From NCBI GenBank assembly GCA_041488235.1, contig JBGPOW010000002.1, positions 1 to 62,896 on the forward strand: 62,896 bases of DNA. Reading direction: 5' to 3'. Every line of letters starts with the position of its first letter. Position 1 is the first letter of the stretch. The notes under the pieces are model-generated. The model saw only the letters and a list, made by a program, of their open reading frames with translations. It was not told the DNA's origin and searched no databases. Shown piece after piece: positions 22,398-39,881 of this stretch. The position numbers and the translations under genes are program-made. The stretch comes from Candidatus Binatia bacterium (GTDB taxonomy: Bacteria > Desulfobacterota > Binatia > UTPRO1).

Positions 22398-23009
22398 TCA
22401 GGAGTGGGGCGACAATCCGGTCGCGGCGAGAATCACGCTGGGCTCGAGCCACACGCGCGGGTCGCGCCGCACGTCACGCAGCACGACGCGGCCGGCGGCG
22501 TCGAGGACGAAGGTCGCCGGCAGGGCGACGGGCGCGTTTTCCGGACCCGGCACCCCGATGCCGAGCTGCTCGGTCAGCCCTGCGGCGTCGACGAGAAAGT
22601 ACGCGGGTATCGCGTGCTCGCGAGCAAAGCGCCGGCTCCGCGGCGTCGCCGCGCCGGCGGTCAGGATGACCGCGAGTGTGACGTCGCGGCGGCCGCCGAA
22701 GGCATCGGCGAGATCGAGGACGCGAGCCTTCGTCGGCGCCGACCAGTCGAGGCTCGGTACGAACAGCAGCACGGCGGGATGCCCGGCGAGATCGCCGAGG
22801 GCGATCCGCGTACCGCTCAGGTCGGGCAGCGTGAAGGTCGGAAACGTCTCGCCGACGCGCGGTCCCGCGTCGGGACGCTCGTCGCGCACGCCCGCCTCGG
22901 CGCGGTAGCAGCCGCCGATGCGGACCGCGACGGCGAGCAGATAGCAGCAGAGGAGCGTGGCGCCGATCTTCCCGGCGACGAGCGGACGTGCGGCGGTGGT
23001 CTCGGTCAC
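22398..23009 (-). CDS. membrane-anchored redoxin/AhpC-TSA (TlpA-like) fold protein
   Basis: N-terminal TM helix, then FPTFTLPDLSG..IALGDLAGHPAVLLF. The active-site position reads VPSLDWSAP rather than a C-x-x-C. GTG 23009 overlaps the upstream gene stop; the long upstream part of the track ORF is shadow sequence. Confidence 0.7.
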   Translation of the reverse strand: MTETTAARPLVAGKIGATLLCCYLLAVAVRIGGCYRAEAGVRDERPDAGPRVGETFPTFTLPDLSGTRIALGDLAGHPAVLLFVPSLDWSAPTKARVLDLADAFGGRRDVTLAVILTAGAATPRSRRFAREHAIPAYFLVDAAGLTEQLGIGVPGPENAPVALPATFVLDAAGRVVLRDVRRDPRVWLEPSVILAATGLSPHS

Positions 23010-23461
23010 GCGGCATCCTCCCGCGAGCGCTCCACGACGCGAGGGTCGTCGAGGCGCGGCGGCTTCAGCCACACGAATCCGAGAGCCACGATCGCAAGCA
23101 CGCCCGCTTCGACGCGCAGCTGATCCGCGGCGAGCCGGTACTCGCCGGAGTACCAGGCGAGCAGACGCAGGATGCTCGCGAGCACGAGCGCCGCGGCGGT
23201 CGCGGTGCCGACCCCCGAGGCGCCGACCGGATCGCGCACGGCGGCGACGAGGCAGCCGCCCCAGGCGACGAGCGCCGAGCCCGCGAACGCGAGGACGTAG
23301 TACCCCCAATAGTCGGTGGCGAAGAGCGGTCGCGCGAAGAGCTGGAAGAGGGCGCGATCGAAAAACGCCACCACGCACACGAGACCGACGAGGAAGCAGA
23401 CGCCGGCAGCAGTCGCCGCGAGAAGCCGGTACGCGAGGTACGAGCGCGTGGGCGAAGGCAC
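23006..23461 (-). CDS. small polytopic membrane protein, unknown family
   Basis: 151 aa with about 4 hydrophobic helices and normal (not Arg/Pro-skewed) composition. Translationally coupled to the redoxin gene. Confidence 0.55.
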   Translation of the reverse strand: MPSPTRSYLAYRLLAATAAGVCFLVGLVCVVAFFDRALFQLFARPLFATDYWGYYVLAFAGSALVAWGGCLVAAVRDPVGASGVGTATAAALVLASILRLLAWYSGEYRLAADQLRVEAGVLAIVALGFVWLKPPRLDDPRVVERSREDAA

Positions 23462-23591
23462 GCCGCGTCCTCGCAGGCGACCGGCGGGTTGTCAATTCGT
23501 GACGGCCGCGACGCGCGAAGCTGGCGACAGCGGAGGCCGCGTTGTAAGAGGATCGCCCGCAGCTGGAGATCGCGCCGCCCTCCGCCCCGGG

Positions 23592-23668
23592 GGAGCAGCG
23601 CGAATTCACTTCGCGCTGCGACGCCCATCGGAGCACGGCGCGCGGAGCGCGCCGCGCGCACGGGGGCG
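23592..23668 (+). repeat. double-hairpin element, copy A (partner at 38121-38196)
   Basis: GGAGCA + 10-bp stem/TTCAC loop (23595-23619) + invariant GACGCCCATCGGAGCA + 8-bp stem/3-nt loop (23636-23654) + GCGCACGGGGGCG. Lies 20 nt upstream of the oxidoreductase ATG. Confidence 0.75.
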
Positions 23669-23687
23669 TAATGGAGGTGCAGCACGC

Positions 23688-24704
23688 ATGCGATCGGTGT
23701 GGATACCGCGAATCGGCCCGCCGGAGGTCCTCGAGGTCCGTGAGATTCCCGATCCGCACCCGCGTTCGGGCGAGGTGCGGGTGCGCGTACGCGCGTCGGG
23801 CGTCAACTTCGCCGACTGCATGGCGCGCATGGGCCTCTATCCCGACGCGCCGAAGCTGCCGTGTGTCGTCGGCTACGAGGTCGCGGGGACGATCGACGAG
23901 ATCGGCGACGGTGTCGACGGTCTGACGGCGGGAATGTCGGTCATCGCGCTCACGCGCTTCAACGGCTACGCCGAGCTCGTCGTCGTGCCGGCCGGCCAGG
24001 TGGTGCCGCTTCCCGACGGAATGACCTTCGAGCAAGGCGCGGCGTTGCCGGTGAACTACCTGACCGCGATTCTGATGCTGGAGGACATGGGGCACGTGAA
24101 CCGGGGCGAGCGCGTGCTGGTGCACGGCGCCGCTGGCGGCGTCGGCCTCGCGGCCGTGCAACTGGCGCGCATCCACGACGCCGAGGTCATCGGCACCGCG
24201 TCGGCGAGCAAGCATGCGGCGCTGCGTGACGCGGGGGTGGCGCACACGATCGACTATCGCACGGCCGACTTCGAGGTCGAGGTGCGGCGGTTGACCGGCG
24301 GGCGCGGCGTCGACGTGGTGCTCGACCCGATCGGCGGCGAGAACCTGCGGCGCAGCTACCGGTCGCTGGCGCCGCTCGGCCGCTTGGTGGCGTTCGGCTT
24401 CTCGGCGAGCGCCCCGGGTACGTCGCGCAGCATCCCCACGGCTCTCTGGCAGCTCCTGCGCATGCCGCGCTTCAGCCCGATCACGCTGATGAACGACAAC
24501 CGCGTCGTCATGGGCGTCAATCTCGGCCACCTCTGGGGCGAGCCGGCGCTCCTACGCCGCGGCCTCACGCGCCTCCTCGACTACTTCCGTGCCGGCAAGA
24601 TCAATCCAACCGTCGGGAAGACGTTCCCGCTCACCGACGCCGCGGCGGCCCACGCGTACATCCAGGGACGGCAGAACGTCGGCAAGGTGGTGCTCACGGT
24701 ATGA
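23688..24704 (+). CDS. zinc-type alcohol dehydrogenase/quinone oxidoreductase (MDR superfamily, VAT-1-like)
   Basis: GPPEVLEV...SGVNFAD...GYEVAGTI...VHGAAGGVGLAAVQLA (Rossmann)...GKVVLT at the C-terminus. SD GGAGGTG lies 8 nt before ATG 23688. Confidence 0.9.
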   Translation: MRSVWIPRIGPPEVLEVREIPDPHPRSGEVRVRVRASGVNFADCMARMGLYPDAPKLPCVVGYEVAGTIDEIGDGVDGLTAGMSVIALTRFNGYAELVVVPAGQVVPLPDGMTFEQGAALPVNYLTAILMLEDMGHVNRGERVLVHGAAGGVGLAAVQLARIHDAEVIGTASASKHAALRDAGVAHTIDYRTADFEVEVRRLTGGRGVDVVLDPIGGENLRRSYRSLAPLGRLVAFGFSASAPGTSRSIPTALWQLLRMPRFSPITLMNDNRVVMGVNLGHLWGEPALLRRGLTRLLDYFRAGKINPTVGKTFPLTDAAAAHAYIQGRQNVGKVVLTV

Positions 24705-25186
24705 CGGCGGCGCGACGGTGCACCGCCGGCTGTCTGAGCGGCGACAGTCTCATCGAGACCGTCGACGGCCCGCTCACGCTCCCATCGCTCGTCGGCAAGC
24801 CGATGCCCGTCTTGACGCGCCTTCCGGATCACCGCATCGGGTTCCGCCTCATGACGAAGATCGCCTGCACAGCGACCGGCGTCGCGGTGATGCGCGTCAC
24901 GTTCGACAACGGCCAAGCCGTCACCGTCGACCGCGGCCACGTGTTCTACGCGCAGGGCATGGTCGAGCGGCCGGTCGAGTCGCTCACGATCGGCGAGATG
25001 CTCGACACGAGCTTCCATTTTCCCGCCGGCTACGAGTTCCGCCGCGTCGACGGCGGCGCGGAGATCTCGGCGGGTGCGCTTCGCGTCCAGGCAATCGCCG
25101 ATGCCGGCACGGCCGACGTCTTCACCGGCATCGTCAACGAGACCGGCTGTTACTTCGCGACCGCCGGCGTGCTGTGCAGGGCGTGA
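24701..25186 (+). CDS. free-standing Hint (intein / bacterial intein-like) domain protein
   Basis: Block-A-like CLSGDSLIETVDG at residues 11-23, block-B-like AVTVDRGHVFY, and block F/G-like DVFTGIVNETGCYFATAGVLCRA at the extreme C-terminus. No recognisable extein. The ATG overlaps the oxidoreductase stop (ATGA). Confidence 0.65.
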   Translation: MTAARRCTAGCLSGDSLIETVDGPLTLPSLVGKPMPVLTRLPDHRIGFRLMTKIACTATGVAVMRVTFDNGQAVTVDRGHVFYAQGMVERPVESLTIGEMLDTSFHFPAGYEFRRVDGGAEISAGALRVQAIADAGTADVFTGIVNETGCYFATAGVLCRA

Positions 25187-25187
25187 C

Positions 25188-25871
25188 ATGGAAACGACAC
25201 TCTTGATCGGTGGCTTTTGGGCCGCGTTCGCCGGTACCCACGTCTGGTTGTCGTCGGCGCGCACGCGCATGGCGCTGATCGAGCGCGTCGGGCCGCAGCC
25301 GTTTCAAGGGATCTACTCGCTCGTCGCGCTCGCGACGTTCGTGCCGCTGGTGTGGATCTTCGCCCGCCACAAGCACGCGGGACCGCTCCTCTGGATGACG
25401 CTCGGGCCGCCGACGATCGCCCGCGCCGTCAACTACGTGCTGATGGCGGTGGCGCTGATCCTCTTCGTCGCCTCGCTGCTGCCGTCGTCGACGCCGCCGA
25501 GCTCGATGCTGGCCCACGGCGCCGCGGCGCCGCACGGCATGCTGCGTATCACCCGCCATCCGATGCTCGCGGGGTTCGGCGTCTTCGGCATCGCGCACCT
25601 GCTGATGAACGGGACGCTCGGCGACGTGCTCTTCTTCGGCGGCTTCCCGCTGTTCGCGTGGATCGGCGGGCGCCACCAAGATTCGCGTAAGCTACAGACG
25701 GTCCCCGGCTACGAGACGTTTCTCGCGACGACCTCGATCGTCCCGTTCGCCGCGATTCTCGCCGGCCGCCAGCGCTTCGTCGCGCGCGAGCTACCGATCG
25801 CGGCGCTCGCGGTCGGACTCGTCGCGACCGTCCTACTGCGGACGTATCACCGCCAAATCTTCGGTCCCTGA
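25188..25871 (+). CDS. NnrU family membrane protein
   Basis: 227 aa, multi-TM. Contains ITRHPML...GIAHLL.NG and WIGGRHQD, characteristic of NnrU/DUF2214-type proteins. Confidence 0.75.
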   Translation: METTLLIGGFWAAFAGTHVWLSSARTRMALIERVGPQPFQGIYSLVALATFVPLVWIFARHKHAGPLLWMTLGPPTIARAVNYVLMAVALILFVASLLPSSTPPSSMLAHGAAAPHGMLRITRHPMLAGFGVFGIAHLLMNGTLGDVLFFGGFPLFAWIGGRHQDSRKLQTVPGYETFLATTSIVPFAAILAGRQRFVARELPIAALAVGLVATVLLRTYHRQIFGP

Positions 25872-25912
25872 GCCGTGCTCGCGGCGGCGATGGGTCGCCG
25901 CCGCGACACGCT

Positions 25913-26566
25913 TCAGGGCGCGTGGTGGCCGGGCTTCGTCGGCGGCCAGAGTTCGGGCGCGAGCGACTCGTCGACGTCCGGTGCGGGTGGCGGTGCCGGC
26001 GGCGGCGCGGCGACTTCCGGTCCATGCTCGCAGGGCGCGTCGCCGTGGCACGGCGCGCCACCCTTGCACGGCCCGCCATGCTCGCGGCAGTGCTTGCAGC
26101 CGTGGCGACACTCGTCGCAGGGTCGACTGTCGCCGTGCCGGCAGCCGTGGTCGTGCCACATCGCGTGTACAGGGACGCGGACGAGCGTGACGACGCGCGT
26201 CCCGCGCGGCGACTCGAGACGCAACTCGACGGGAGCGTCGGCCGGACCGCGAATGAGACGCGCCGCCTCGGGAATCGTCATGCCGCGCGTGGACTCGCCG
26301 TCGATCGCCCGAATGCGGTCGCCCGGTTGGACATCGGCTTGGTCGGCGGGGCCTCCGGGAAGCACGTGCGCGACGACGAGCGGGCCGTGCCCCGATTCGC
26401 CGCGGCGCGCGATCGCGATGCCGATGACGCCGAACCGGCTTTCATGGTCACGGTGGTGGTAGCCATGATGCGGGTGATGCCCGTGACCCTCGTACATGTA
26501 CGCGGTGCACGACGGCAGGGTCAGTATGGCGATGGCGACCGTGAGGCTCTTCAGCAACGTTCGCAT
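25913..26566 (-). CDS. lipoprotein with central PDZ domain, His-rich N-terminal and Cys/His-rich C-terminal tails
   Basis: Signal peptide plus lipobox (AILTLPSC), then YEGHGHHPHHGYHHRDHE, a PDZ core (GGPADQADVQPGDRIRAIDG), and 8 Cys with about 10 His in HDHGCRHGDSRPCDECRHGCKHCREHGGPCKGGAPCHGDAPCEHG. Confidence 0.75.
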   Translation of the reverse strand: MRTLLKSLTVAIAILTLPSCTAYMYEGHGHHPHHGYHHRDHESRFGVIGIAIARRGESGHGPLVVAHVLPGGPADQADVQPGDRIRAIDGESTRGMTIPEAARLIRGPADAPVELRLESPRGTRVVTLVRVPVHAMWHDHGCRHGDSRPCDECRHGCKHCREHGGPCKGGAPCHGDAPCEHGPEVAAPPPAPPPAPDVDESLAPELWPPTKPGHHAP

Positions 26567-26604
26567 GGCTGTCCTCCTCGTCCAAGCGGGGTGTTACGGG
26601 GACG

Positions 26605-27936
26605 TTATACGAAGATCCCGCGGCGCTTGGCGAGTAGGTCGGCGATGCCGGTCGCGAGCGCCGCCCGCAAGCGCGCCGTGGTCTCGGCGACGATTTCTTC
26701 CTCGGGGCGGCCGTCGGCCTCAGGCGCGGCGATCGGCGGGCAGAAGTGCATGCGCCACTTGCTCGGCAGCGGCACCGCTCCGGCGACGCCGCAGAGCGGG
26801 AACGTCGGCGTGATCGGGATCCAGGGCAGCCCGACGAGACCGCCGACGCGGTAGAGCCGCGCCACCACCGGATACGCCTCCTCGGCGCCGACGATCGCGA
26901 CCGGTACGATGGGCGCGCCAGTACGAAGCGCGAGCCGCGCGGTGCCGGTCTTGAACGGACGCAACCGATAGCGCTCGGTGAAGCGCTTCTCGACGCCGGC
27001 GATGCCCTCGGGAAAGAGCCCGACGATCTCGCCACGCCGCAACATCATCTCGCCGTTCGGAAACGACGCCGGAAATGCGCCCAGCCGTCGGTACAGCGGT
27101 CCGATCAGCGGCAGCGCGTCGACGAAGCGATCGTAGAGGACGCGCAGGCAGCGCGCCGGCTTTCGCAGCTCGAGCGCGACCGCGAGCATGAACGCGTCGG
27201 CGGGGATCGCGCCCGAGTGGTTGGCGGCGATGAGCGCCGGCCCGGCGTCGGGCACGTGCTCCAGGCCGGACACCTCGACGCGCCAGTAATGATCGAAGAG
27301 GACGCGCAGCGGGCGCAGCCACGCGCGACGAAGCGGCAGATCGAGGTCGAAAGGGTCGGGCGTGGTGTCGGGTACGGTTTCCGTCGGTGCCGGCGCCTCG
27401 CTCGGCTGCGTCTCCGGCTGCACGAAGACCGTGGACCCCGGATCGTGCGCTTCCCGCACCACATCGTGCGCCGGCGACGCGTGGTGCGGCGGCGCTACGG
27501 TATCCTGTGGCGGCGGTGCGGGGGGCGAGCTGGGGAACAGTCGCGGGCGCGCCGCGATCGGCGTCGGCACGACGTGGATGTCGTGCGCGGCGAGATCGTC
27601 GAGCGTCGCGAGCAGCGCGCGCGCGTCGGGTGTGTCGATGAACCGCGCCTCGATCGTCACCTGCCTGGCATGGCGCGCGCGCATCGCCAGCGCTTCCTGG
27701 CGCACGCGGCGGAGCGTTGCGCCGTCGAACGTGCCGACGACGACCGCGCTCGCCGCGCCGGCACTCTCGCACCGTACGGTCGCGGCGAGAAGGCCCGTCG
27801 GCGTTGCGATCCGCTCGGTCGTCACGTCGGAGAGCGATGGCGCGACTTCTGGCTCGGAGCGCGTAGGCATGACTGAGGGCTGCTGATGACGAACCCTGGT
27901 ACTGTCCCCCCTCGTCGTCGGTATTGTCAACGCCAC
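26605..27936 (-). CDS. PlsC/LPLAT-superfamily acyltransferase with ~200-aa N-terminal extension
   Basis: Acyltransferase blocks IAANHSGAIPAD, LFPEGIAG and IVPVAIVG in the C-terminal 240 aa. The N-terminus has a possible STAS-like module and a Pro-rich linker. GTG start at 27936; ATG 27870 is an alternative. Confidence 0.75.
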   Translation of the reverse strand: MALTIPTTRGDSTRVRHQQPSVMPTRSEPEVAPSLSDVTTERIATPTGLLAATVRCESAGAASAVVVGTFDGATLRRVRQEALAMRARHARQVTIEARFIDTPDARALLATLDDLAAHDIHVVPTPIAARPRLFPSSPPAPPPQDTVAPPHHASPAHDVVREAHDPGSTVFVQPETQPSEAPAPTETVPDTTPDPFDLDLPLRRAWLRPLRVLFDHYWRVEVSGLEHVPDAGPALIAANHSGAIPADAFMLAVALELRKPARCLRVLYDRFVDALPLIGPLYRRLGAFPASFPNGEMMLRRGEIVGLFPEGIAGVEKRFTERYRLRPFKTGTARLALRTGAPIVPVAIVGAEEAYPVVARLYRVGGLVGLPWIPITPTFPLCGVAGAVPLPSKWRMHFCPPIAAPEADGRPEEEIVAETTARLRAALATGIADLLAKRRGIFV

Positions 27937-28050
27937 TTCGTGCGTTCCGCCGCGATGTGCCGTTGCGCGTGCGCTTGCGTCGCCGGTCGAGCGTCGGTAT
28001 GGCGAGCAACACCGTCGCGTTCGTGACGGGGGTGAACCGTCGACGCGATC

Positions 28051-29160
28051 GTGAGCCCGACCACCCGTTGCCGTGTGCTCTTCGCGCTCCCGAGCTTACG
28101 GGGTGGCGGCGCCGAGCGTGTGGTCGTGACGCTGCTGCGCCATCTCGACCGCACGCGCTTCGAGCCGCACCTCGTGCTCGTCGAGTCGGTAGGCCCATAT
28201 CTCGGCGATGTGCCGGACGACGTGGCGGTGCACGCGCTCGGCGCGCCGCGCCTGCGCCGCGCGATCCCCGGAATGTTGCGAGTCATCCGCGACGTGGGCC
28301 CGGCGGTCATTGTGTCGACGCAAGGCTACATGAACATGGCGCTGCTCCTGCTCCAGCCGTTTTTTCGCGGCTCGCGCTTGATCGTGCGCGAGGTCATCGG
28401 CGAGCGCTATCTCGAGAACAGCCGCTTTCAGCCGCTGCTCTACCGCGTGTATCTGCGCCTCGTCCGCCGCGCCGCGCGCATCGTCGTGCAGTCGGATGCG
28501 GTCCAGCGCGAGATGGCGGCGCGTCTCGCGTCGCCGCCGGGCCACGTCGTCCGTGTGTACAACCCCGTCGACGCGGAGGAGATTGCGATGCGTGCGCGTG
28601 CGGCGGCGCCGCTCGCCGCGGCCGAGCGGCCGCACGTGCTGGCGGCCGGCCGTCTCGGTCATCAAAAGGGGTTCGATCTCTTGCTCGAAGCGTTCGCCGG
28701 CGTGGTCCACACGCTCGGCCGCGGCACGCTCACGATTCTCGGCGACGGGCCGGAGCGCGCGACGCTCGCAGCGCAAGCCGCGGCCCTCGGGATCGCGCCG
28801 GCGGTACGCATCGTCGGCTTCCAGGAGAATCCCTTCGCGTATTTCGCCGCCGCCGACCTCTTCGTGCTCTCGTCGCGCTACGAGGGACTGCCGAACGTCG
28901 TCCTGGAGGCGCTCGCCTGCGGCTGTCCCGTCGTCGCCTTCGATTGCCCGCACGGCGCGCGCGAGATCGTTCGCGCGGAGCTGAACGGTCTCCTCGTCCC
29001 GCCCGAGGACGTCGCGTCGCTGCGCGCGGCGATGCTGCGCGTCTTGGAAAACGACGACGAGCGGCGCCGGCTCGCCGCCAACGCGCGCAGCAGCCTCGAG
29101 CCGTTTCTCGCGGCGACGATCGTGCGCGAGTGGGAAGCGCTCCTCGAAGCGGTGCGCTGA
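28051..29160 (+). CDS. GT4-family (GT-B fold) glycosyltransferase
   Basis: N-terminal LPSLRGGGAER and C-terminal GRLGHQKGFD...SSRYEGLPNVVLEALACGCPVV (E-x7-E region). Confidence 0.9.
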   Translation: MSPTTRCRVLFALPSLRGGGAERVVVTLLRHLDRTRFEPHLVLVESVGPYLGDVPDDVAVHALGAPRLRRAIPGMLRVIRDVGPAVIVSTQGYMNMALLLLQPFFRGSRLIVREVIGERYLENSRFQPLLYRVYLRLVRRAARIVVQSDAVQREMAARLASPPGHVVRVYNPVDAEEIAMRARAAAPLAAAERPHVLAAGRLGHQKGFDLLLEAFAGVVHTLGRGTLTILGDGPERATLAAQAAALGIAPAVRIVGFQENPFAYFAAADLFVLSSRYEGLPNVVLEALACGCPVVAFDCPHGAREIVRAELNGLLVPPEDVASLRAAMLRVLENDDERRRLAANARSSLEPFLAATIVREWEALLEAVR

Positions 29161-29190
29161 GCGACGCGCGGCGGCCGCCCAGTCCGGCGG

Positions 29191-30414
29191 TCACTCGTCG
29201 TCGAAGCGGAGCGGCGTCTCGACGCCGACGTTCCATCCGGCGCGCAGCGAGACGTAGCGCGTGTCCGTCGCGTCGCGCGGCAGGCAGCCGGCGGCGGCGC
29301 GTACGCGCTCCTCCATGCGCTCGACGGGAGCGGTCGTCACCGGCGGCGCGGGAAACGGTTTGGGGGCGCCGCGAAACTCGGGCGGGCGGGCGCCGCGAAA
29401 CGCGTTACCGGCGAGATACACGGATGCACCGCCGATCGCGCGCAGCGCCGAGTCCGCCTTGCCGCCGCGGTGGTGCGCGTACTCGGAGAGCACGAAGAGC
29501 GAGTCGACGACGTTACCGGTGGCGCCGTCCTCGAAGCGGGCGCCCCATTCGCCCCAGTCCTCGACGATGACGTTGCGGACGTCGGCGCGCGCGCGACCGG
29601 AGACGATGGGATTGCGGATCCAGCCTTTCTGGATCCAGCTGTGGTGCAGGGACAGGTTCGTGCCGCCTTCCTTGCAGAAGACGGAGCGAGTGTTGCCCGC
29701 GAGGAAGAGGTACTGCGCCGTCACGTCGTGGGCCTCGTACCCGACCGACAGGCCGTCGTCGCGCGCCCCGGTCGACGACACGTGGGTGAAGACGATGTCG
29801 TGCGCCTCGGGGCCTTGCGCGCGGAGATTGTCGTAACCGTTTCGCAGGCGCAGGTTGCGCACGATCACGTCGTGGGTGCGAATGTCGAGCAACGCGACGT
29901 CGTGTCCGAGCTCGCTGCCGTCGATCGTGGCGCCGCGACCGTCGATCGTGACGTTCGGTGCCGTGAGGTAGGGCAGCGGACGCGTGACCATGATCGGCTC
30001 GTCGACATCGAAGCGCAGCACGGCGTCGCCGGTCTCGTTGACGTCGCGGATCGCGTCGCGCAAGCGCTCGACGCTCGGCTCGGTCACCCACACCTCGCGG
30101 CCGCCGGCGCCGCCTTTGGTCGCGCTGCCGAAGCCTTCGAGCGGCTCCTCGGCGCGCGACGCGGCGGCGCGCGGCGGACGCCGGACGGCCGCCGGCGGGG
30201 GCGCCGGAGTCGCGCGCGGCGCAGGCGAGCTCGTCGCGCTCGTCCGCGGTCGCGCGTGCGGCGAGGTGGCGCGTTTCGGCACGGCGCTCGTGCCGTGCGC
30301 AATCCCGCTGCACGCCGCTGCGCCGAGCGTCGCGAGCGCGAGCGCGAGCAGTGCATGATGCGCCATCCACAGCACGCCGCGGCCGTCGCGTCGGTGTCGA
30401 GTGCGTGTGGACAT
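29191..30414 (-). CDS. lipoprotein with right-handed parallel beta-helix, pectate-lyase-like polysaccharide lyase (putative)
   Basis: Signal peptide plus lipobox (LALATLGAAAC) and a Pro/Ala/Ser linker. Repetitive beta-helix rungs follow: NVTIDGRGATIDG, DVIVRNLRLRNG, DIVFTHVS, DDGLSV. The start is chosen at the ATG giving MSTRTRHRRDG...; ATG 30366 is an alternative. Confidence 0.65.
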   Translation of the reverse strand: MSTRTRHRRDGRGVLWMAHHALLALALATLGAAACSGIAHGTSAVPKRATSPHARPRTSATSSPAPRATPAPPPAAVRRPPRAAASRAEEPLEGFGSATKGGAGGREVWVTEPSVERLRDAIRDVNETGDAVLRFDVDEPIMVTRPLPYLTAPNVTIDGRGATIDGSELGHDVALLDIRTHDVIVRNLRLRNGYDNLRAQGPEAHDIVFTHVSSTGARDDGLSVGYEAHDVTAQYLFLAGNTRSVFCKEGGTNLSLHHSWIQKGWIRNPIVSGRARADVRNVIVEDWGEWGARFEDGATGNVVDSLFVLSEYAHHRGGKADSALRAIGGASVYLAGNAFRGARPPEFRGAPKPFPAPPVTTAPVERMEERVRAAAGCLPRDATDTRYVSLRAGWNVGVETPLRFDDE

Positions 30415-30682
30415 CGCGGACGACACGTACCATGCGCCCGCGGCGCTGTCGCGACGGTCGTGAGGCGGGCGAGCGAGGCGTGCGCGTTTCCGGGAAGAGA
30501 AGTCTACGTCTGCGCGCGCGCCGCGCTCGCCCATCTCACGACCTCGCGACCGCGCGGAAATACGCTACTTGGCGTGCTGCGTTCCATCGTATATCAGAGC
30601 GATACGTATCCACGGGCTCGCCGCATCTTTTCCGCCTCGACGAGCCACACACGTTTCGCAGAAGAGGCGAGCCACGAACGCC

Positions 30683-31648
30683 ATGGTGACCCAGGTCGAT
30701 CGCCGTCGTAGCGCCAGCATCTTGGCGTGTCCGAGTTGCGGCGGCGACGTCGAGCCCGTCTCCGGCGGTCTCGAGTGCGTCGCCTGTCGCTCGGTCTACG
30801 CCGACGACGGAGTGTTGCGCTTCGTGAACCGCGAGGCGTACGCCGAGTCCTTCGGCGTGCAGTGGAAGACGTTCTCGCGCGTGCAGCTCGACTCCGGGCG
30901 CCTCGCCGATTCCGAGCGACGGTTTCGTGCCGAGACCGCGCTGCAGCCGAGCGACGTCCGCGGCAAGGTCGTGCTCGAGGCGGGCTGCGGGATGGGCCGC
31001 TTCCTCGACGTCGTTTCGCGCGACGGCGCCGCGCTCGCGGTCGGCGTCGACCTCTCGAGCGCCGTCGACGCCGCGGCGGAGAACCTCGGCCGGCGGGACA
31101 ACGTCCTGATCGTCCAAGGCGACATCTTCAAGCTGCCGTTCAAGCCCGGCGCTTTCGACGTCATCTACTCGATCGGCGTCCTGCACCACACGCCGTCGTG
31201 CGAGCGCGCGTTCAAGGCGCTGGTGCCGCTCGTCACACCCGGCGGGACGATCGCCATCAGCGTCTACGCCGCAACGGTGAAGCCCGGTGTGCCGTGGGCG
31301 CTCAACATCTTTCGCCGACGCGCGTGGCGCGTGATCACGCGCCGCTTGCCGCGCCGAGTCGTCATGTGGTGGTCGAAGTACGCGGTGCCGATTTTCTGGG
31401 CGATCGACAAGATCCCGGTCGTTCGTTACGTGCGGTATCTCTTCCCGGTGCTGATCTACAAGGACTACCCGCTCGAGTGGTCCGTCCTCGACACCTTCGA
31501 CACCTATGCGACGGAGCTCGAGTCGCGGCACCGGCCGAAAGAGGTCTTCCGCTGGTTTCGCGAGATGCGGCTCACCGACATCGACCTCCTCGACAGTGAC
31601 GACGGGTGGGTGAGCGTGCGCGGTCGCGTGCCGACGCGGCTCGCCTGA
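30683..31648 (+). CDS. class I SAM-dependent methyltransferase with N-terminal Cys4 zinc-ribbon
   Basis: CPSCGG...CVAC ribbon, then motif I VLEAGCGMGRF and motif II-like VIYSIGVLHH. Confidence 0.8.
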   Translation: MVTQVDRRRSASILACPSCGGDVEPVSGGLECVACRSVYADDGVLRFVNREAYAESFGVQWKTFSRVQLDSGRLADSERRFRAETALQPSDVRGKVVLEAGCGMGRFLDVVSRDGAALAVGVDLSSAVDAAAENLGRRDNVLIVQGDIFKLPFKPGAFDVIYSIGVLHHTPSCERAFKALVPLVTPGGTIAISVYAATVKPGVPWALNIFRRRAWRVITRRLPRRVVMWWSKYAVPIFWAIDKIPVVRYVRYLFPVLIYKDYPLEWSVLDTFDTYATELESRHRPKEVFRWFREMRLTDIDLLDSDDGWVSVRGRVPTRLA

Positions 31649-31661
31649 CCGCGCGCGCGTC

Positions 31662-33548: not shown

Positions 33549-34831
33549 GCGCGACCGCCGGGACGCCTCCCGGTACCCACCTGGCGTACGTCACCGCCGG
33601 CTTCCCGAACCTCACGCAATCCTTCGTACGTCGCGAGGTCGAGACGGTGCGGGCGCTCGGCGTGCCGCTCACGATCTTCTCCGTCCGTCCGCCGCCGCGG
33701 GAGTTCCCCGATCCCAGCCTGGCGCGCTACGTCGACGAGACGATCTACGGCACGCGGCTGTCGCTGGCGCTGTTCGCGGCGCACGCCCATTTCCTTCGGC
33801 GCCGGCCGCGACGGTACCTCGCGGCGCTCGGACGCGTGCTCGCGCTCGCGTTCCGCCAGTGGCGCTGCGGCAGCCTGCCGCTCCGCACGTGCGTCGTCTT
33901 TCCGATGAGCGTCTACTTTGCGCGCGTCATGGAGGAGCGCGCGGTGACGCACGTCCACGCCCACTTCGCCAATCACCCGACGACCGCCGCGCGCGTCGCC
34001 GCGAGCCTTCTCGACCTGCCGTTCACGTTCACCGGACACGCGTGGGACATCTTCGTGCCCGCGAATCAGATCGGCCTCGCCGACAAGATCGCCGAGGCGA
34101 CGGCCGTCGTCACGTGCACCGAGTTCAATCGTCGACTGCTGTGCGAGCTCGTCTCGCCGGCACAGCGCGCGAAGATCGCGGTCTGCTATCACGGGATGAC
34201 GTTGCCGTCGGGTCCGCGGCCGGAGCGCGAGGCCGATCTGATCGTCGCCGTCGGGCGGCTGAGGCAGAAGAAGGGGTTTCATCACTTGGTTGCGGCGTGC
34301 GCCGAGCTCGCGCGCGACGGCGTCCCACTTCGCTGCGTCATCATCGGCGAGGGCGAGGAGGAGTCGTCGCTCAACGAGGCGATCGCGTGCGCCGGCTTGC
34401 GCGATCGCGTGACGCTCGCCGGCGCACGCCCGCATCGCGAGGTGATGGATTGGATCGCGCGCGCGGCGGTTTTCGCGCTGCCGAGCATGATCGCGAAGGA
34501 CGCTTCCATGGATGGTATCCCGAACGTGATCCTCGAGGCGTTCGCGGTCGAGACGCCGGTGGTCTCGACGCGGCTCTCGGGCATCCCGGAGGTGGTGCGC
34601 GACGGCGAGACGGGGGTGCTCATCGCGCCGGACGATCCACACGCGCTCGCGACGGCGTTGCGCGATGTCCTTGCGCATCCGGAGACGCACCGCGCGCGCG
34701 CGCGGCGCGGACGTGACCTCGTCGCGGCGGCGTTCGATCTGGACCGCAACGTGCGCCAGTTCCTCGCCTGGATCACGGAGCCTCATGGCGACGACGCCGC
34801 GGCCAGCGCTACGCAACGCGCCGTTTCTTGA
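33545..34831 (+). CDS. GT4-family glycosyltransferase (WcaL-like)
   Basis: GTG overlaps the asnB stop (GTGA). C-terminal GRLRQKKGF...DGIPNVILEAFAVETPVVSTRLSGIPEVV matches the GT-B donor-binding region. Confidence 0.85.
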   Translation: MSATAGTPPGTHLAYVTAGFPNLTQSFVRREVETVRALGVPLTIFSVRPPPREFPDPSLARYVDETIYGTRLSLALFAAHAHFLRRRPRRYLAALGRVLALAFRQWRCGSLPLRTCVVFPMSVYFARVMEERAVTHVHAHFANHPTTAARVAASLLDLPFTFTGHAWDIFVPANQIGLADKIAEATAVVTCTEFNRRLLCELVSPAQRAKIAVCYHGMTLPSGPRPEREADLIVAVGRLRQKKGFHHLVAACAELARDGVPLRCVIIGEGEEESSLNEAIACAGLRDRVTLAGARPHREVMDWIARAAVFALPSMIAKDASMDGIPNVILEAFAVETPVVSTRLSGIPEVVRDGETGVLIAPDDPHALATALRDVLAHPETHRARARRGRDLVAAAFDLDRNVRQFLAWITEPHGDDAAASATQRAVS

Positions 34832-35163: not shown

Positions 35164-35332
35164 GCCGGCGGGCGACGATACGCCTGCTCGTCATCGCGAG
35201 CCACACCGTTGGATCCACCGCAGCCGCACGATGGCGAGCGACCGTCGTGCAGCTTTGCATGAGGGTGGTCTCGACGTTCAGCGGCTTAGCTCTTGAAAAT
35301 TCGCAGGTTTTCCGATTTTCGCAACGGCCGCG

Positions 35333-35347
35333 TGGCACTGGAATTGC
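35333..35347 (+). promoter_or_regulatory. sigma54 (-24/-12) promoter
   Basis: TGGCAC-tggaa-TTGCT, an exact match to the TGGCAC-N5-TTGCW consensus. It lies 54 nt upstream of GTG 35401, which has a GAAGGAG SD. Confidence 0.8.
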
Positions 35348-35400
35348 TTTCGTCGTGTCGCCCCTATCCGCTCGGTAGGCGCACCCGAAGGAGTTCTGCC

Positions 35401-36639: not shown

Positions 36640-36641
36640 GA

Positions 36642-38063
36642 GTGGACATGGACACGAGAATCTTGATCGTCGACGATGATCCCCTGATCTGCCGCCAGCT
36701 CGAGGATCTCTACACTTCGCAGCAGTACCTGGTGAGCAGCGCCGGCAACGCCTCGGAGGCGCTGCGCCTGCTCGGCGAACACGACTTCTCGCTCGCCGTC
36801 GTCGACCTGCGCATTCCCGGCACCGACGGCATCGGCCTCACGCGCGAGATCCGCGAGCACTGGCCCGATCTCGACGTGATCATGATCACCGGCTACGCCA
36901 GCATCAAAGGCGCGGTCGAGGCGATCAAACAGGGCGCGAGCGACTACATCACGAAGCCCTTCCAGAAGGAGGAGATCCTCCTCGCCACGGAGAAGGTCCT
37001 CGAGAAGCGCCGCCTCCTCGACGAAATCAACTACCTCCGCAACCAGCTCTCGAACCGCTACTCGTTCGCGAACATCGTCAGCCGCAACCGCGTCATGCAC
37101 GAGATCTTCGAGACGATCGAGGTCCTCGCGCAGAACGACGCGACGGTCCTCATCACCGGTGAGTCCGGGACCGGCAAGGAGCTCGTCGCCCGCGCCATCC
37201 ACTACCAGGGCAAGCGGAAGTCCGGCCGATTCGTCGCGATCAACTGCGCCGCCTTCCCCGACACGCTCCTCGAAAGCGAGCTCTTCGGGTACGAACGCGG
37301 TGCGTTCACCGGCGCGGTGCACGACCGCGTCGGCAAGATCGAGCTCTCGAGCGGCGGTACGTTGTTCCTCGATGAAATCGAGAGCATCACGCTCAACATG
37401 CAGCTGAAGCTCTTGCGCGTGCTCGAAGAGCGCGAGGTCGAGCGCCTCGGCGGCAATCGCAAGGTGAAGGTCAACATGCGCGTGATCGCGGCGACGAACG
37501 TCGAGCTGGGCGAGCTCGTCGCCGACGGCCGGATGCGCGAGGACTTCTTCTACCGGGTCAACGTCGTGCCGGTGAAGATTCCGCCGCTTCGCGATCGCAT
37601 CGAGGACATCCCGCTCCTCGTGTGTGAGTTCCTGCGGAACAGCGAGATGGCCCGCGAGCGCGGCATCACCCGTGTGTCCAACAAGGCGCTCTCGGAGCTC
37701 ATGGGCTTCACCTGGCCCGGCAACGTGCGCGAGCTCGGCAACGTCCTCGAGCGCGCCATTCTGCGCACGACCGGCCCGGTCATCCGCGAGGTCGATCTCC
37801 CCGGCGCCGGCAAACGCAAGGACCTCGAGTCCATCCGCCGAACGTACGACTACGAGGTGCCCCTGAAGGAGTACTTGCGCCGAGCCGAGAAAGATTATTT
37901 GAGTCACGTTCTCAAGAAGAACCGTGGGAGCATCAATCTCAGCGCCAAGCACGCGCTCGTCGATGCGGCGACGCTGCATCGAAAGATGAAGCTCCATGGT
38001 CTCGCGCGCGAAGACTTCCGGGGCCGCGGCCGAAGCGAACCCGATCAAGCGCTCGTCGGCTGA
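36642..38063 (+). CDS. sigma54-dependent response regulator (NtrC family: REC + AAA+ + HTH)
   Basis: REC (ILIVDDD...VVDLRIPGTDG), Walker A GESGTGKE, the sigma54-contact loop GAFTGA, Walker B LFLDEI, and a C-terminal HTH. The start is GTG 36642 or ATG 36648, with SD TAGGAG just upstream. Confidence 0.93.
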   Translation: MDMDTRILIVDDDPLICRQLEDLYTSQQYLVSSAGNASEALRLLGEHDFSLAVVDLRIPGTDGIGLTREIREHWPDLDVIMITGYASIKGAVEAIKQGASDYITKPFQKEEILLATEKVLEKRRLLDEINYLRNQLSNRYSFANIVSRNRVMHEIFETIEVLAQNDATVLITGESGTGKELVARAIHYQGKRKSGRFVAINCAAFPDTLLESELFGYERGAFTGAVHDRVGKIELSSGGTLFLDEIESITLNMQLKLLRVLEEREVERLGGNRKVKVNMRVIAATNVELGELVADGRMREDFFYRVNVVPVKIPPLRDRIEDIPLLVCEFLRNSEMARERGITRVSNKALSELMGFTWPGNVRELGNVLERAILRTTGPVIREVDLPGAGKRKDLESIRRTYDYEVPLKEYLRRAEKDYLSHVLKKNRGSINLSAKHALVDAATLHRKMKLHGLAREDFRGRGRSEPDQALVG

Positions 38064-38120
38064 CGCCGCGCTGCTTTCAGTCGACGGTCGTGCGAGTAAC
38101 GCGCGGCGTAGCCGCGCGGA

Positions 38121-38196
38121 GGAGCACCCGGGATTCACTCCCGGGTGCGACGCCCATCGGAGCATCGGCCGCGTAGCGGCCGAGCGCACGGGGGCG
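38121..38196 (+). repeat. double-hairpin element, copy B (partner at 23592-23668)
   Basis: Same architecture as copy A: stems 38124-38133/38139-38148 and 38165-38172/38176-38183. Loop TTCAC, the 16-nt linker and the 13-nt tail are identical, and the stems differ by compensatory changes. Ends 2 nt before ATG 38199. Confidence 0.75.
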
Positions 38197-38198
38197 AA

Positions 38199-39881
38199 AT
38201 GTATTTAACCTTCTTCGGGTTTCGTGAGAAGCCGTTCAATCTCACCCCCGATCCGAAATTTCTGTACCTGAACGCGAGCTACCGCGAGGCGCTCGCGTCG
38301 CTGCGCTACGGTATCAACGAGCGCAAAGGATTCGTCTCGCTGATCGGCGAGGCGGGTACTGGGAAGACGACGCTGCTGCGGCGATTGCTCGCCGAGCTCG
38401 GAGCGGAGATCCGCAGCGTTCTGATCCTCAATCCCGCCGTCGGGTTCGACGAGCTCCTGGCGTTCATTCTGACCGATCTCGGCCACGTTTCGGAGCCGGG
38501 CACGCCGAAGCTGCAATTGCTGCAAGCCCTCAACGCCGAGCTGCTCGATACCCTCGCGCGTGGCGGCAACGTCGTGGTGCTGATCGACGAGGCGCAGGAC
38601 CTCTCGATTCAGGTGCTCGAGGAGCTGCGACTGCTGTCGAACTTGGAAACGGCGAAGGAAAAAATTCTGCAGTTCGTCATCGCGGGGCAGCCGGAGCTGG
38701 ACGAGATGCTGGCGCGGCCAGAGCTGCGTCAGCTGCGGCAGCGCATCGCCGTGCCGGCACGTTTGCGGCCGCTCGGGCGGGGTGAGGTGGCGGCGTACGT
38801 CGCGGCCCGCATCGCGGCGGCCGGAGGCGACGCCCGCGGGCTCTTGACGGCGTCCGCGCTCCGTCAGCTGTACGGTTTCTCCCGCGGCGTCCCGCGCCTG
38901 GTGAACGTCGCGTGTGACAGCGCCCTCGTCACCGCGTACGCCGCCGGCACGCGCCTCGTCGATCGCAAGATCATGCGCGAGGCGATCAAGGATCTGCGCC
39001 GCGGTCCCTATCGGCGATCGATGGCGGCAGCCTGGCGCGTGCGGTTCGCGACGGTGGTGGTTGCCGCGGTGGTGGGCGCCGTCGGCGGCATCGCGGCTTC
39101 GCGGCTCGCCGGTGGGTCGTTGGAACGCTGGCGGACCGCGGCGGCGCCGAGCCCGGCGGTCGAACGACGACTGACGGCCGCAGTGCCGAGCGCGTCTCAG
39201 CAGGAGGTGCGAATGGCGGCGCCGGTGGCGTCAGCGGTGCCGATGCGTTCGGCGGAGCCCGAGCTCGTCGCGGCGGTGCCGGCGCCACCCGCGGCGACGC
39301 CGGCTGTGACGCAAAACGCCGCAGACGCGCGCAGCGCCGGCGATGTCGTGCAGCCGCCGCCGGAAAGCCGGACGTCGCCGGCGCCCGCGCAGGTCGCGGA
39401 AGCAACGGCCGGCGTCGCGCCAGTCGCTGCGACGGTGTCGCTCACGCCGATTCCCGCGCCGGCGGCGGCGTCAGTGAACGAAGCCAGCGGCACGCCTGCC
39501 ACGTCCGCGGCCCCGCGGCGCATGTCACAACCTGTGCGCGTACCGCGGCCGAAGCCGTCCCCGCACGCCGCCCGTCCATCGCGCACCCGTGAGCCCCAGG
39601 TCGCCGACGACGAGGCGACGACGGCCGCAGAACCCGCTGTCGTGGACGAGAAGCACCATGTCCTCATTCGCGAGGGAGACGACCTGTCACACATTCTTCG
39701 CCGCGTGTACGGGTATGTGGACGACGAGCTGCTCGACGCGATCCAACGCGCGAATGCGGACACGCTCGTCGATCGCAACCGGTTGACGCCCGGTGACACG
39801 CTCTTCGTTCCACCGGATCCGTTTCTCGCGAACGAGCCGATGCCGGGGCCGACGTCGGACGGGAGTGGCGCAGCGCCGTGA
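38199..39881 (+). CDS. ExeA-like AAA+ ATPase - TM segment - Pro/Ala-rich linker - LysM domain protein
   Basis: N-terminal FGFREKPFNLTPDPKFLY, Walker A GEAGTGKTT, Walker B VVVLIDEAQ, a TM helix (FATVVVAAVVGAVGGIAA), a ~170-aa Ala/Pro-rich tract, and a C-terminal LysM-like HVLIREGDDLSHILRRVYG...LTPGDTLFVP. Confidence 0.85.
   Translation: MYLTFFGFREKPFNLTPDPKFLYLNASYREALASLRYGINERKGFVSLIGEAGTGKTTLLRRLLAELGAEIRSVLILNPAVGFDELLAFILTDLGHVSEPGTPKLQLLQALNAELLDTLARGGNVVVLIDEAQDLSIQVLEELRLLSNLETAKEKILQFVIAGQPELDEMLARPELRQLRQRIAVPARLRPLGRGEVAAYVAARIAAAGGDARGLLTASALRQLYGFSRGVPRLVNVACDSALVTAYAAGTRLVDRKIMREAIKDLRRGPYRRSMAAAWRVRFATVVVAAVVGAVGGIAASRLAGGSLERWRTAAAPSPAVERRLTAAVPSASQQEVRMAAPVASAVPMRSAEPELVAAVPAPPAATPAVTQNAADARSAGDVVQPPPESRTSPAPAQVAEATAGVAPVAATVSLTPIPAPAAASVNEASGTPATSAAPRRMSQPVRVPRPKPSPHAARPSRTREPQVADDEATTAAEPAVVDEKHHVLIREGDDLSHILRRVYGYVDDELLDAIQRANADTLVDRNRLTPGDTLFVPPDPFLANEPMPGPTSDGSGAAP

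What the first reader, a model, noticed from the sequence alone, without database searches (positions are those of the whole stretch)
23592..23668. Two-copy ~77-nt double-hairpin element with compensatory stem substitutions (copy A)
Copies at 23592-23668 and 38121-38196 share the layout GGAGCA / 10-bp stem with loop TTCAC / invariant GACGCCCATCGGAGCA / 8-bp stem with 3-nt loop / GCGCACGGGGGCG. The single-stranded parts are identical, whereas both stems differ and remain perfectly paired: stem 1 is GCAGCGCGAA vs GCACCCGGGA (4 paired changes) and stem 2 is CGGCGCGC vs TCGGCCGC. That is the signature of selection on structure rather than sequence. Both copies have the same orientation and sit just 5' of plus-strand start codons, the oxidoreductase here and the ExeA-like ATPase there. 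CGCCC in the linker could pair with GGGCG in the tail, enclosing hairpin 2. I do not recognise it as a named RNA family. It could be a structured leader or an interspersed REP-like element.
Basis: seen in the sequence. Interest (0 to 1): 0.6.

Follow-up and report, generated by a model that had tools for sequence, protein, structure and literature searches.

The report
Hairpin repeat family in Binatia genomes
The two look-alike double hairpins are real, but they are two of about 44 copies of a small folded repeat scattered between genes of this uncultured bacterium and its relatives, so they are a new family of a familiar kind of bacterial repeat and not a dedicated control element for the two neighbouring genes.

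Summary
Both copies exist as described (cores at 23591-23672 and 38120-38200, + strand), and the paired stem changes are real. "Two-copy" is wrong. A covariance model finds 44 copies in this 4.85-Mb assembly, and copies in 16 of 18 other genomes of the same taxonomic family (at least 46 in some), but only 1-5 in a few other families of the class. Relatives that carry it are labelled Candidatus Binatia or "Deltaproteobacteria bacterium".

The element is modular. It consists of a GGGAG head, hairpin H1 (10 bp, loop TTCAC) and a second helix P3. P3 closes either a variable perfect hairpin H2 (long form, as here) or a short loop. The tail is GGGGGCGAAAT. Extra modules and tandem arrays also occur. 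The fold has strong covariation support.

Both window copies are missing at the orthologous sites of same-genus genomes, so the element comes and goes. Orientation relative to neighbouring genes is not fixed.

One property is unexplained: the 3' tail sits within 6 nt of a start or stop codon in 33 of 81 cases, against 6 of 77 for the 5' head.

No Rfam match, no Y1 transposase partner and no RNA data were found.

Verdict: a new REP/BIME-like mosaic repeat family, with its means of spreading unknown.

The parts
23591..23672 (+). Copy A, conserved core (long form). Head GGGAG 23591-23595; hairpin H1 23595-23619 (10 bp, loop TTCAC 23605-23609); P3 5' strand 23623-23630; internal loop GAGCA 23631-23635; hairpin H2 23636-23654 (8 bp, loop GGA); P3 3' strand 23661-23667; tail GTAAT 23668-23672.
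   Evidence: Sequence. R1 match 81.3 bits, E 7e-14. Fold. Consensus structure.
23559..23682 (+). Whole 124-nt segment at copy A that is missing in same-genus genome G004. It holds the core plus a 32-nt 5' extension and a 10-nt 3' extension (GGAGGTGCAG, a canonical Shine-Dalgarno-like GGAGG 11 nt before the ATG).
   Evidence: In G004 the flanks are directly adjacent (query 659 joins 784). Alignment.
23688..24704 (+). Gene downstream of copy A: zinc-type alcohol dehydrogenase / quinone oxidoreductase family. Its ATG at 23688 is conserved in G001, G002 and G004.
   Evidence: Pfam ADH_N, ADH_zinc_N and ADH_zinc_N_2. Alignment.
38100..38118 (+). Optional 5' module H0 of copy B: hairpin CGCGCGGC-GTA-GCCGCGCG. 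It is seen in about 12 of 20 long-form copies of this genome.
   Evidence: Sequence. Alignment A1.
38120..38200 (+). Copy B, conserved core (long form). H1 38124-38148 (loop TTCAC); P3 5' strand 38152-38159; H2 38165-38183 (8 bp, loop GTA); P3 3' strand 38189-38195; tail GAAAT 38196-38200. The last two tail bases are the AT of the start codon.
   Evidence: Sequence. R1 match 79.8 bits, E 1.5e-13. Fold. Absent at the orthologous site of G001 and G005.
38199..39881 (+). Gene downstream of copy B: AAA_22 (ExeA-like) ATPase. Its N-terminus MYLTFFG is shared with relatives that lack the element.
   Evidence: Pfam AAA_22, E 8e-26. Orthologous starts. Translation.
36642..38063 (+). Gene upstream of copy B: sigma-54-dependent response regulator. 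Its stop codon lies 56 nt before the core.
   Evidence: Pfam Response_reg + Sigma54_activat. Context.

Best explanation
The two stretches are members of a lineage-specific family of small, modular, hairpin-forming interspersed repeats. It is a REP/BIME-like mosaic element found in one family of uncultured Binatia-type bacteria. Shown: the family is multi-copy, mostly intergenic, occurs singly and in head-to-tail arrays, and is built from interchangeable modules. Copies are gained or lost between same-genus genomes. The fold (H1 plus the P3/H2 composite hairpin) is kept through many double substitutions, while the unpaired head, loop and linkers stay constant. Inferred: new copies arise by a DNA-level process that needs or preserves the hairpins, most likely recognition of a folded single strand. 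Only insertions next to gene punctuation (start codons, stop codons, tRNA 3' ends, -35-like boxes) survive or are targeted. That would explain why the AT-containing 3' tail abuts these signals. Where the tail lands on a start codon, as at copy B, the element's G-run replaces the native Shine-Dalgarno sequence. The element then becomes part of the 5' untranslated region as a side effect, not as its reason for existing. The enzyme or process that spreads it was not identified.
For: Copy number: 44 R1 matches in the window's own genome. An uncapped search gave 55, 40 and 14 matches in G018, G014 and G005. Taxon: 56 of 64 loci from the public pattern scan matched R1, and all 56 came from MAGs titled Candidatus Binatia, Deltaproteobacteria bacterium or delta proteobacterium. 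The 8 loci from other taxa did not match. Modularity: there are long and short forms, two optional inserts, an optional H0 hairpin, and tandem arrays with a unit of about 66 nt. The H1 and H2 types occur in all four combinations among six copies of this genome. Structure: on 105 distinct copies, 98.4% of cells are paired, against 82.5% when shuffled and 35-58% when the partner is slid. Ten of 17 pairs have changes on both sides, with 253 such cells against 85.7 +/- 7.9 in shuffles (0 of 500 shuffles reach the observed value). There are about 40 distinct H1 stems. There are 23 distinct H2 hairpins among 32 long-form copies, with 195 of 197 pairs Watson-Crick. Gain and loss: copy A is absent in G004, G001 and G002. 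Copy B is absent in G001 and G005, and a diverged variant is present in G004. Five elements of G001 have empty sites in the window's genome. Near-identical copies sit at unrelated loci: copy A against C13:36969 differs at 4 of 82 positions, and copy B against C47 at 2 of 81. By contrast, flanking genes of same-genus genomes are 82-89% identical. Docking: the 3' tail lies within 6 nt of a start or stop codon in 33 of 81 hits, against 6 of 77 for the 5' head (p=1e-6).
Against: No mobilising gene was found. There is no Y1/HUH transposase match in the window's genome. Seven family genomes with 4 to at least 46 copies also have none, and two genomes with strong Y1 hits have 0 or 1 copies. No element copies flank the Y1-like genes. 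I saw no terminal inverted repeats and no target duplication at the one precisely resolved junction, so transposition is inferred and not shown. Gain and loss could partly be deletion. The alignment used for pair counts was fitted to the model, which favours pairing. The copies are related, so the shuffle test overstates the support. Gene calls come from my own codon-usage caller, so distances to starts are approximate. The starts were confirmed by recognisable N-termini only for the loci. There are no expression data.
Confidence: 0.8

Rival explanations
1. A cis-acting structured 5' leader, meaning a translational or transcriptional control RNA. The element is selected as RNA in front of genes. 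P3 sequesters the G-run that serves as the ribosome binding site, and the constant loops bind a common factor.
For: In 9 loci of this genome the start codon lies 0-5 nt after the tail, so GGGGG is the only Shine-Dalgarno-like sequence there. The genes include dnaX, prfA, cmk, purQ and the ExeA-like gene. At copy B the native GGAGGA seen in G001 is replaced. The G-run is paired in P3. A T.G wobble is fixed on this strand in 99 of 105 copies, and G.T outnumbers A.C 19 to 7 in H1. The sense strand folds slightly better in 28 of 44 copies with RNA parameters.
Against: Only a minority of copies precede a start codon. Thirteen of 34 non-edge intergenic hits in this genome, and 28 of 47 in G018, face the stop codon of a gene on the other strand. 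Eleven of 33 co-directional loci are antisense to both neighbours. The downstream genes are functionally unrelated. Copies are absent from orthologous leaders in same-genus genomes. There are tandem arrays. There is no Rfam match.
Confidence: 0.1
2. A non-autonomous derivative of an IS200/IS605-type element (PATE) or a REP element. It would be mobilised in trans as folded single-stranded DNA by a Y1 (HUH) transposase or RAYT, and inserted next to a short target without duplication.
For: Two hairpins lie on the same strand with constant bases at their feet. No TIR and no TSD were seen. The tail joins directly to short A/T-containing triplets (TCA, TAA, ATG) in four resolved filled/empty pairs. 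The H0, H2 and short-form centres carry C-GNA-G triloops. From memory, and not from any call, these form unusually stable DNA mini-hairpins.
Against: PF01797 has no match in the window's genome and does not track copy number across 19 family genomes. No copies flank the Y1-like genes. No single target motif emerged. On the 7.0-Mb contig of G018 the strand does not switch along the contig (38 minus, 17 plus), unlike the replication-linked orientation recalled for this family. The origin and terminus were not located, and GC skew was too weak to use.
Confidence: 0.15
3. Primarily a host-useful 3'-end element: a hairpin block behind genes that ends or stabilises transcripts, as proposed for REP in enterobacteria, and that works in both directions.
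For: The upstream neighbour ends, on the same strand, 8-320 nt before the head in 21 of 30 non-edge intergenic hits. The tail abuts stop codons of convergent genes in 8 hits in G000 and 14 in G018, and abuts tRNA 3' ends. The folds are very stable, at -54 kcal/mol.
Against: No U-tract follows the hairpins on either strand (sequences), so it is not a canonical intrinsic terminator. Many copies sit between a promoter-like TTGAC box or a start codon and the gene in front. Same-genus genomes do without the element at the same sites. There are no transcript data.
Confidence: 0.15

Closest known systems
REP / BIME elements of enterobacteria and pseudomonads, and REPINs mobilised by RAYT. For Bertels & Rainey 2011 (PMC3116915) I saw only the search listing and the start of the abstract. 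The rest is recalled.
   Same: Short, GC-rich, extragenic, hairpin-forming repeats present in tens of copies. They are mosaics of palindromic units and constant linkers, found singly or in clusters. They are lineage-specific and differ in presence or absence between related genomes.
   Different: The unit is 65-104 nt with two different hairpins in direct order, not an inverted pair of one REP. The stems are hypervariable (about 40 H1 variants) while the loops and linkers are constant, which is the reverse of REP conservation. No RAYT was found. The 3' end shows polar docking on start and stop codons.
BOX elements of Streptococcus pneumoniae (boxA-boxB-boxC).
   Same: Modular build from a few boxes with a variable number of internal modules. 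Intergenic location, predicted stable folds, and no transposase of their own.
   Different: Unrelated sequence and host. BOX modules are conserved in sequence and are not kept by stem covariation. BOX has no known docking on start or stop codons.
IS200/IS605-derived palindrome-associated elements (PATEs). Recalled.
   Same: Hairpins on one strand, no terminal inverted repeats, no target duplication seen, and a junction next to a short A/T-containing target.
   Different: No Y1 transposase partner, no single target word, and no strand switch along a 7-Mb contig.
Structured interspersed repeat families noted earlier by this scan in other uncultured lineages (e1-5212538 Melainabacteria, e1-1034432 Omnitrophota, e1-801533 Portnoybacteria and others).
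   Same: The same general kind: undescribed, lineage-specific folded repeats with stem covariation that come and go at gene ends.
   Different: Different sequence family and phylum. A look-up by sequence found no look-alike in the scan.

Membership tests
REP / REPIN-RAYT system | A Y1 (HUH) RAYT gene in the genome, typically single-copy and flanked by the repeats | tested here: not met
   PF01797 gave 0 matches in G000, which is 100% complete by markers but in 425 contigs. Across 19 family genomes the Y1 hits do not track copy number. R1 found no convincing copies in the 10 loci around Y1-like genes; the best was 23.5 bits, inside coding sequence.
REP / REPIN-RAYT system | Unit is a 20-40-nt imperfect palindrome, usually as two inverted REPs (REPIN) | tested here: not met
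   The unit is 65-104 nt. H1 and the P3/H2 hairpin are different and stand in direct order.
REP / REPIN-RAYT system | Tens to hundreds of extragenic copies | tested here: met
   There are 44 copies, and 36 of them lie outside my gene calls. The other 8 are mostly start-codon miscalls or gene ends.
BIME-type mosaic repeat | Combinations of palindromic units with a small set of linker motifs, in variable order and number, also as clusters | tested here: met
   Long and short forms, an optional H0, two optional inserts, tandem arrays, and reassorted H1/H2 types.
BIME-type mosaic repeat | Binding of IHF, gyrase or Pol I | not testable with these tools
   This needs biochemistry.
IS200/IS605-derived PATE | Insertion 3' of one fixed tetra- or pentanucleotide, without duplication | tested here: inconclusive
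   No duplication was seen. Junctions lie next to TCA, TAA or ATG, but there is no single word.
IS200/IS605-derived PATE | Orientation follows the replication direction | tested here: inconclusive
   GC skew is too weak in G000: mean absolute value 0.013, with 16 of 39 hits positive in element orientation. On G018:C6 there is no strand switch (38 minus, 17 plus), but the origin and terminus were not located.
MITE (transposase-dependent, TIR-bearing) | Terminal inverted repeats and target-site duplication | tested here: not met
   The ends GGGAGC... and ...GGGGGCGAAAT are not inverted copies of each other. There is no duplication at the copy A junction against G004.
Known RNA family (Rfam), riboswitch or leader | Match to a curated model, or a constant association with one gene family | tested here: not met
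   There were 0 matches at gathering score in the window. Only chance-level hits were found around both copies, with E 0.19-4.2. The downstream genes are unrelated.
Intrinsic terminator | GC-rich hairpin followed by a U-tract | tested here: not met
   GAAAT(C/G)A follows the last helix. The other strand ends in GCTCCC.

The most novel reading that the evidence does not exclude
The element is a mobile, structure-selected RNA cassette that docks on start codons. It swaps the gene's own ribosome binding site for a G-run locked in helix P3. Unrelated genes (dnaX, prfA, cmk, purQ, the ExeA-like ATPase and a Tat-exported protein) would thereby come under one shared post-transcriptional control, exerted through the constant GGGAG head, the UUCAC loop or the GAGCA/GCGCA internal loop. 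That would make it a dispersed regulon created by a repeat.
Probability: 0.08. Interest if true: 0.8.

Novelty: new member of a known kind. Interest (0 to 1): 0.35.

Why it matters
Binatia (Binatota) are uncultured, and my searches found no paper that describes repeats in them. This family adds a well-supported folded repeat to the short list known outside model bacteria, and it has two uncommon traits. First, the stems vary freely while the loops and linkers are fixed. Second, the 3' end sits exactly against start codons, stop codons and tRNA ends. If the docking reflects a target rule, it points to an unknown way of inserting DNA at gene punctuation in GC-rich genomes. If it reflects selection, it shows how a repeat can take over the ribosome binding site of essential genes. 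There are practical uses too. The repeats break assemblies, since many copies lie at contig ends. They also offer a marker for this clade and a source of presence/absence characters.

Tried and rejected
- Rfam: no match at gathering score over the whole window. Permissive searches around both copies gave only chance-level hits.
- Expression: no RNA holder was listed for the copy B region.
- Public DNA contigs: I laid four runs on 22900-39900. The only results were that contigs of the best holder break inside copy A (pieces end at 23620 and restart at 23638) and that depth is raised there, as expected for a repeat. There was no usable joint across either copy.
- Y1 transposase or RAYT partner: none in the window's genome, no correlation across the family, and no flanking copies.
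- TnpB: the one weak PF07282 match (25.3 bits, next to the C47 copy) is a 106-aa zinc-ribbon membrane protein, not TnpB.
- Orientation by GC skew: the skew is too weak and is uncorrelated with gene strand.
- Fixed orientation relative to transcription: not significant when a second genome is added.
- Target-site duplication, terminal inverted repeats and a single target word: not found. My loose pattern also picked up many false tails, so only the clearly element-like tails were read.
- Earlier findings of this scan: nothing by place or by sequence for this family.
- Literature: no paper holds Binatia or Binatota together with the REP terms. Motif strings hit only unrelated primer lists.
- Pattern-scan singletons: hits in MAGs labelled Acidobacteriaceae, Actinomycetota, Lamprobacter, Anaerolineaceae, Opitutaceae, Lentisphaeria, Gammaproteobacteria and an unclassified 'bacterium' MAG did not match the model. 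I treat them as chance.

Full report
**1. The observation**

Both stretches are in the window as described. Each reads as follows:
- GGAGCA
- a perfect 10-bp stem with loop TTCAC
- GACGCCCATCGGAGCA
- a perfect 8-bp stem with a 3-nt loop
- GCGCACGGGGGCG

Stem 1 differs at four positions, and each change is matched on the other arm. Stem 2 differs in sequence and register and is also perfect in both copies. The exact 16-nt linker occurs exactly twice in the window. The minimum-free-energy folds are -54.7 and -54.0 kcal/mol with RNA parameters. Pfam confirms the downstream genes: a zinc-type alcohol dehydrogenase/quinone oxidoreductase (start 23688) and an AAA_22, ExeA-like ATPase (start 38199).

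**2. It is not a two-copy element**

- The linker occurs 15 times exactly in the window's own 4.85-Mb, 425-contig assembly.
- nhmmer with a profile of these copies finds 45 hits.
- I built covariance model R1 from 32 own-genome copies (alignment A2). It finds 44 matches at E<=0.01, with only the two known ones in the window.
- Among 100 relatives, 16 of 18 genomes of the same taxonomic family have matches. Only 8 genomes of other families of the class have 1-5 matches. In all, 25 of 101 genomes searched have matches.
- An uncapped search gave 55, 40 and 14 matches in G018, G014 and G005.
- A pattern scan of one genome per species returned 88 stretches, of which 80 were given as loci. I passed 64 of these 80 to R1. 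Fifty-six matched, all from MAGs titled Candidatus Binatia, Deltaproteobacteria bacterium or delta proteobacterium. The 8 that did not match were the singletons from other taxa.

**3. Anatomy**

The conserved unit starts with GGGAG and ends with GGGGGCGAAAT.
- H1 is a 10-bp stem with loop TTCAC (86 of 105 distinct copies).
- After a GAC linker comes helix P3: GCCC-A-TCG pairs with CGG-GGGC.
- In the long form (79-83 nt, both window copies) P3 encloses an internal loop (GAGCA / GCGCA) and hairpin H2.
- In the short form (65-67 nt) P3 encloses only CGAGCGCAGCGAG.
- Optional modules are a 5' hairpin H0 (GCGCGGC-GWA-GCCGCGC, present at copy B, 38100-38118), an 18-nt insert before H2, and a 21-nt hairpin insert after GACGCCCA.
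- Units also stand head to tail, for example three at the start of contig C4 with a period of about 66 nt.
- Modules reassort. Of six long-form copies, copy A and C13:36969 share one H1 type and one H2 type. Copy B and C47 share the other H1 type and the other H2 type. C28 has the first H1 with the second H2, and C96:15860 has the second H1 with the first H2.

**4. The fold is supported**

- RNAalifold on the 32 own copies predicts H1 and P3. Nine of 18 pairs show changes on both sides.
- On 107 matches from several genomes (105 distinct), 98.4% of cells form standard pairs. The figure is 82.5% after shuffling partners and 35-58% when the partner is slid by 1-3 columns.
- Ten of 17 pairs have double changes, with 253 such cells against 85.7 +/- 7.9 in shuffles. 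None of 500 shuffles reaches the observed value.
- P3 itself has compensatory changes (C-G to U-A and to G-C at one pair, to G-C at another) and a T.G wobble fixed in 99 of 105 copies.
- About 40 different H1 stems occur.
- H2 has 23 distinct versions among 32 long-form copies. They are 5-10 bp long, and 195 of 197 pairs are Watson-Crick.

Caveats:
- The alignment was fitted to the model, and the copies are related.
- Most swaps are C-G to G-C, which have no wobble intermediate.
- Perfect DNA palindromes can be kept paired by template switching (recalled, not tested).

So the covariation shows that pairing matters. It does not show whether RNA or single-stranded DNA is the selected molecule. 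G.T outnumbers A.C 19 to 7 in H1, and the sense strand folds more stably in 28 of 44 copies with RNA parameters and 33 of 44 with DNA parameters. The H0, H2 and short-form centres are C-GNA-G triloops. From memory, these are unusually stable in DNA. That is a lead, not a test.

**5. Copies come and go**

- Copy A: same-genus genome G004 joins the flanks directly and lacks 124 nt (23559-23682). G001 and G002 carry a different 50-nt GC-rich sequence at that site.
- Copy B: G001 and G005 have 45-48-nt gaps with a canonical GGAGGA (G001) before the same start codon. G004 has a diverged short variant. Genomes of other genera have unrelated spacers.
- In the other direction, I fetched 20 element loci of G001. 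Five have clear empty sites in the window's genome (C37, C164, C178, C206, C93).
- Copies at unrelated loci of one genome are 95-98% alike, while flanking genes of same-genus genomes are 82-89% identical.

**6. Context**

I called genes with a codon-usage model of my own (4438 genes, 88.8% coverage).
- Of the 44 hits, 36 lie outside called genes. The other 8 are mostly start-codon miscalls or gene ends. One convergent gene (C177) reads about 50 nt into the element.
- All four kinds of intergenic context occur.
- In co-directional gaps the element is sense in 9 loci and antisense in 3.
- In a second genome of another genus (G018, 52 of its 55 hits fetched, 47 outside called genes) it is sense in 13 loci and antisense in 8.
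- Pooled, that is 22 against 11, p=0.08. Orientation is therefore not tied to transcription.

One regularity stands out. The 3' tail lies within 6 nt of a same-strand start codon or an opposite-strand stop codon in 15 of 34 non-edge hits in G000 and in 18 of 47 in G018. The 5' head does so in 1 of 30 and 5 of 47. Pooled, this is 33 of 81 against 6 of 77, Fisher p=1e-6.

- Start codons next to the tail were checked by their N-termini: ExeA-like MYLTFFG, DnaX, PrfA, Cmk, PurQ, a Tat-signal protein and others. In four of them the ATG uses the tail's own AT.
- In G018 the tail also lies 3-11 nt from the 3' ends of tRNA genes on the other strand.
- In both genomes a subset of tails is followed after 4-8 nt by TTGAC, with a plausible -10 box 17 nt further on.
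- In four filled/empty pairs the tail joins directly to TCA, TAA(TG) or ATG of the native sequence.
- I found no single target word, no duplication and no inverted ends.

About 40% of ATG genes here have a Shine-Dalgarno-like word upstream, against 10% at control positions. So when the tail lands on a start codon, its G-run, which is paired in P3, takes the place of the native site.

**7. What spreads it**

This is not known.
- PF01797 (Y1 transposase) has no match in the window's genome.
- Across 19 family genomes, strong Y1 hits occur in genomes with 0, 1 and 36 copies. Seven genomes with 4 to at least 46 copies have none.
- No copies flank the Y1-like genes.
- A weak TnpB zinc-ribbon hit is a small membrane protein.
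- On the 7.0-Mb contig of G018, 38 hits are on the minus strand and 17 on the plus strand, with no switch along the contig. This does not look replication-linked, but the origin was not located, and GC skew in the window's genome was too weak to use.

**8. Comparison and verdict**

The element behaves like the REP/BIME class and like pneumococcal BOX elements. It is small, GC-rich, extragenic, mosaic, lineage-specific and without a gene of its own. It is not a member of the REP-RAYT system as defined, because it has no RAYT, no inverted REP pair and a different unit. It is not a TIR-bearing MITE, not a known RNA family and not an intrinsic terminator.

The scan has noted comparable undescribed folded repeats in other uncultured lineages, but none with this sequence. 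My two literature searches found no description of repeats in Binatia. For the REPIN papers I saw only the listing and the starts of the abstracts.

I rate it a new member of a known kind. The two window copies are independent insertions of this repeat. Their position in front of start codons is typical of a sizeable minority of copies, and it reflects the tail-docking property, not a role tied to these two genes.

Noticed in passing
G001:C14 about 10073-10124 and G002:C94 about 2294-2394 (loci L147, L146), orthologous to window 23559-23682: At the site where this genome carries copy A, two same-genus genomes carry a different 50-nt GC-rich, hairpin-prone sequence. G004 has nothing there. The spot in front of the oxidoreductase gene seems to collect insertions, and a second repeat family may exist.
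   Followed up: no
G000 contig ends: C4:6-197, C96:15860-16015, C114:99-179, C302:68-161, C22:34091-34169, C262:5648-5748: Many copies lie at or near contig ends, and public contigs break inside copy A (pieces end at 23620 and restart at 23638). The repeat fragments assemblies, so copy counts in draft genomes are lower bounds. C114 and C302 carry nearly the same tail and flank, which suggests a duplicated region or strain variant.
   Followed up: partly
G000:C177:5981-6045 with gene 5996-7696 (-): A convergent gene appears to read about 50 nt into the element and to stop at the TGA formed by the reverse complement of the H1 loop. Its last ~17 residues would then be encoded by the repeat.
   Followed up: partly
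G018:C6 around 2324179-2324505 (L197): One tRNA-Ser gene has an element on each side. Upstream, a sense copy's tail is followed after 4 nt by TTGACA. Downstream, an antisense copy's tail lies 8 nt from the tRNA 3' end. In L207 a copy sits inside a tRNA operon between tRNA-Lys and tRNA-His.
   Followed up: partly
G000:C206 about 3669-3686 against G001:C70 (L178): In this genome two genes overlap by TAATG (stop/start coupling). In G001 an element of about 190 nt with extra modules separates them, and the upstream protein's C-terminus differs (…IH* instead of …IEEGLL*). The native GGAGGGGC before the start resembles the element's GCGGGGGC tail.
   Followed up: no
G000:C47:12995-13315 (+): A small 106-aa protein with two CxxC pairs and a C-terminal membrane helix gives a weak match to the TnpB zinc-ribbon family (25.3 bits). 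It is not a TnpB. Its stop codon directly abuts an element tail.
   Followed up: yes
G009, G018, G006: Several family genomes hold 4-8 weak PF01797 matches (22-32 bits) in open frames of 190-350 aa. This is a multi-copy, divergent Y1-like gene family of unknown role. The one locus read (L158) has no element copies beside it.
   Followed up: partly
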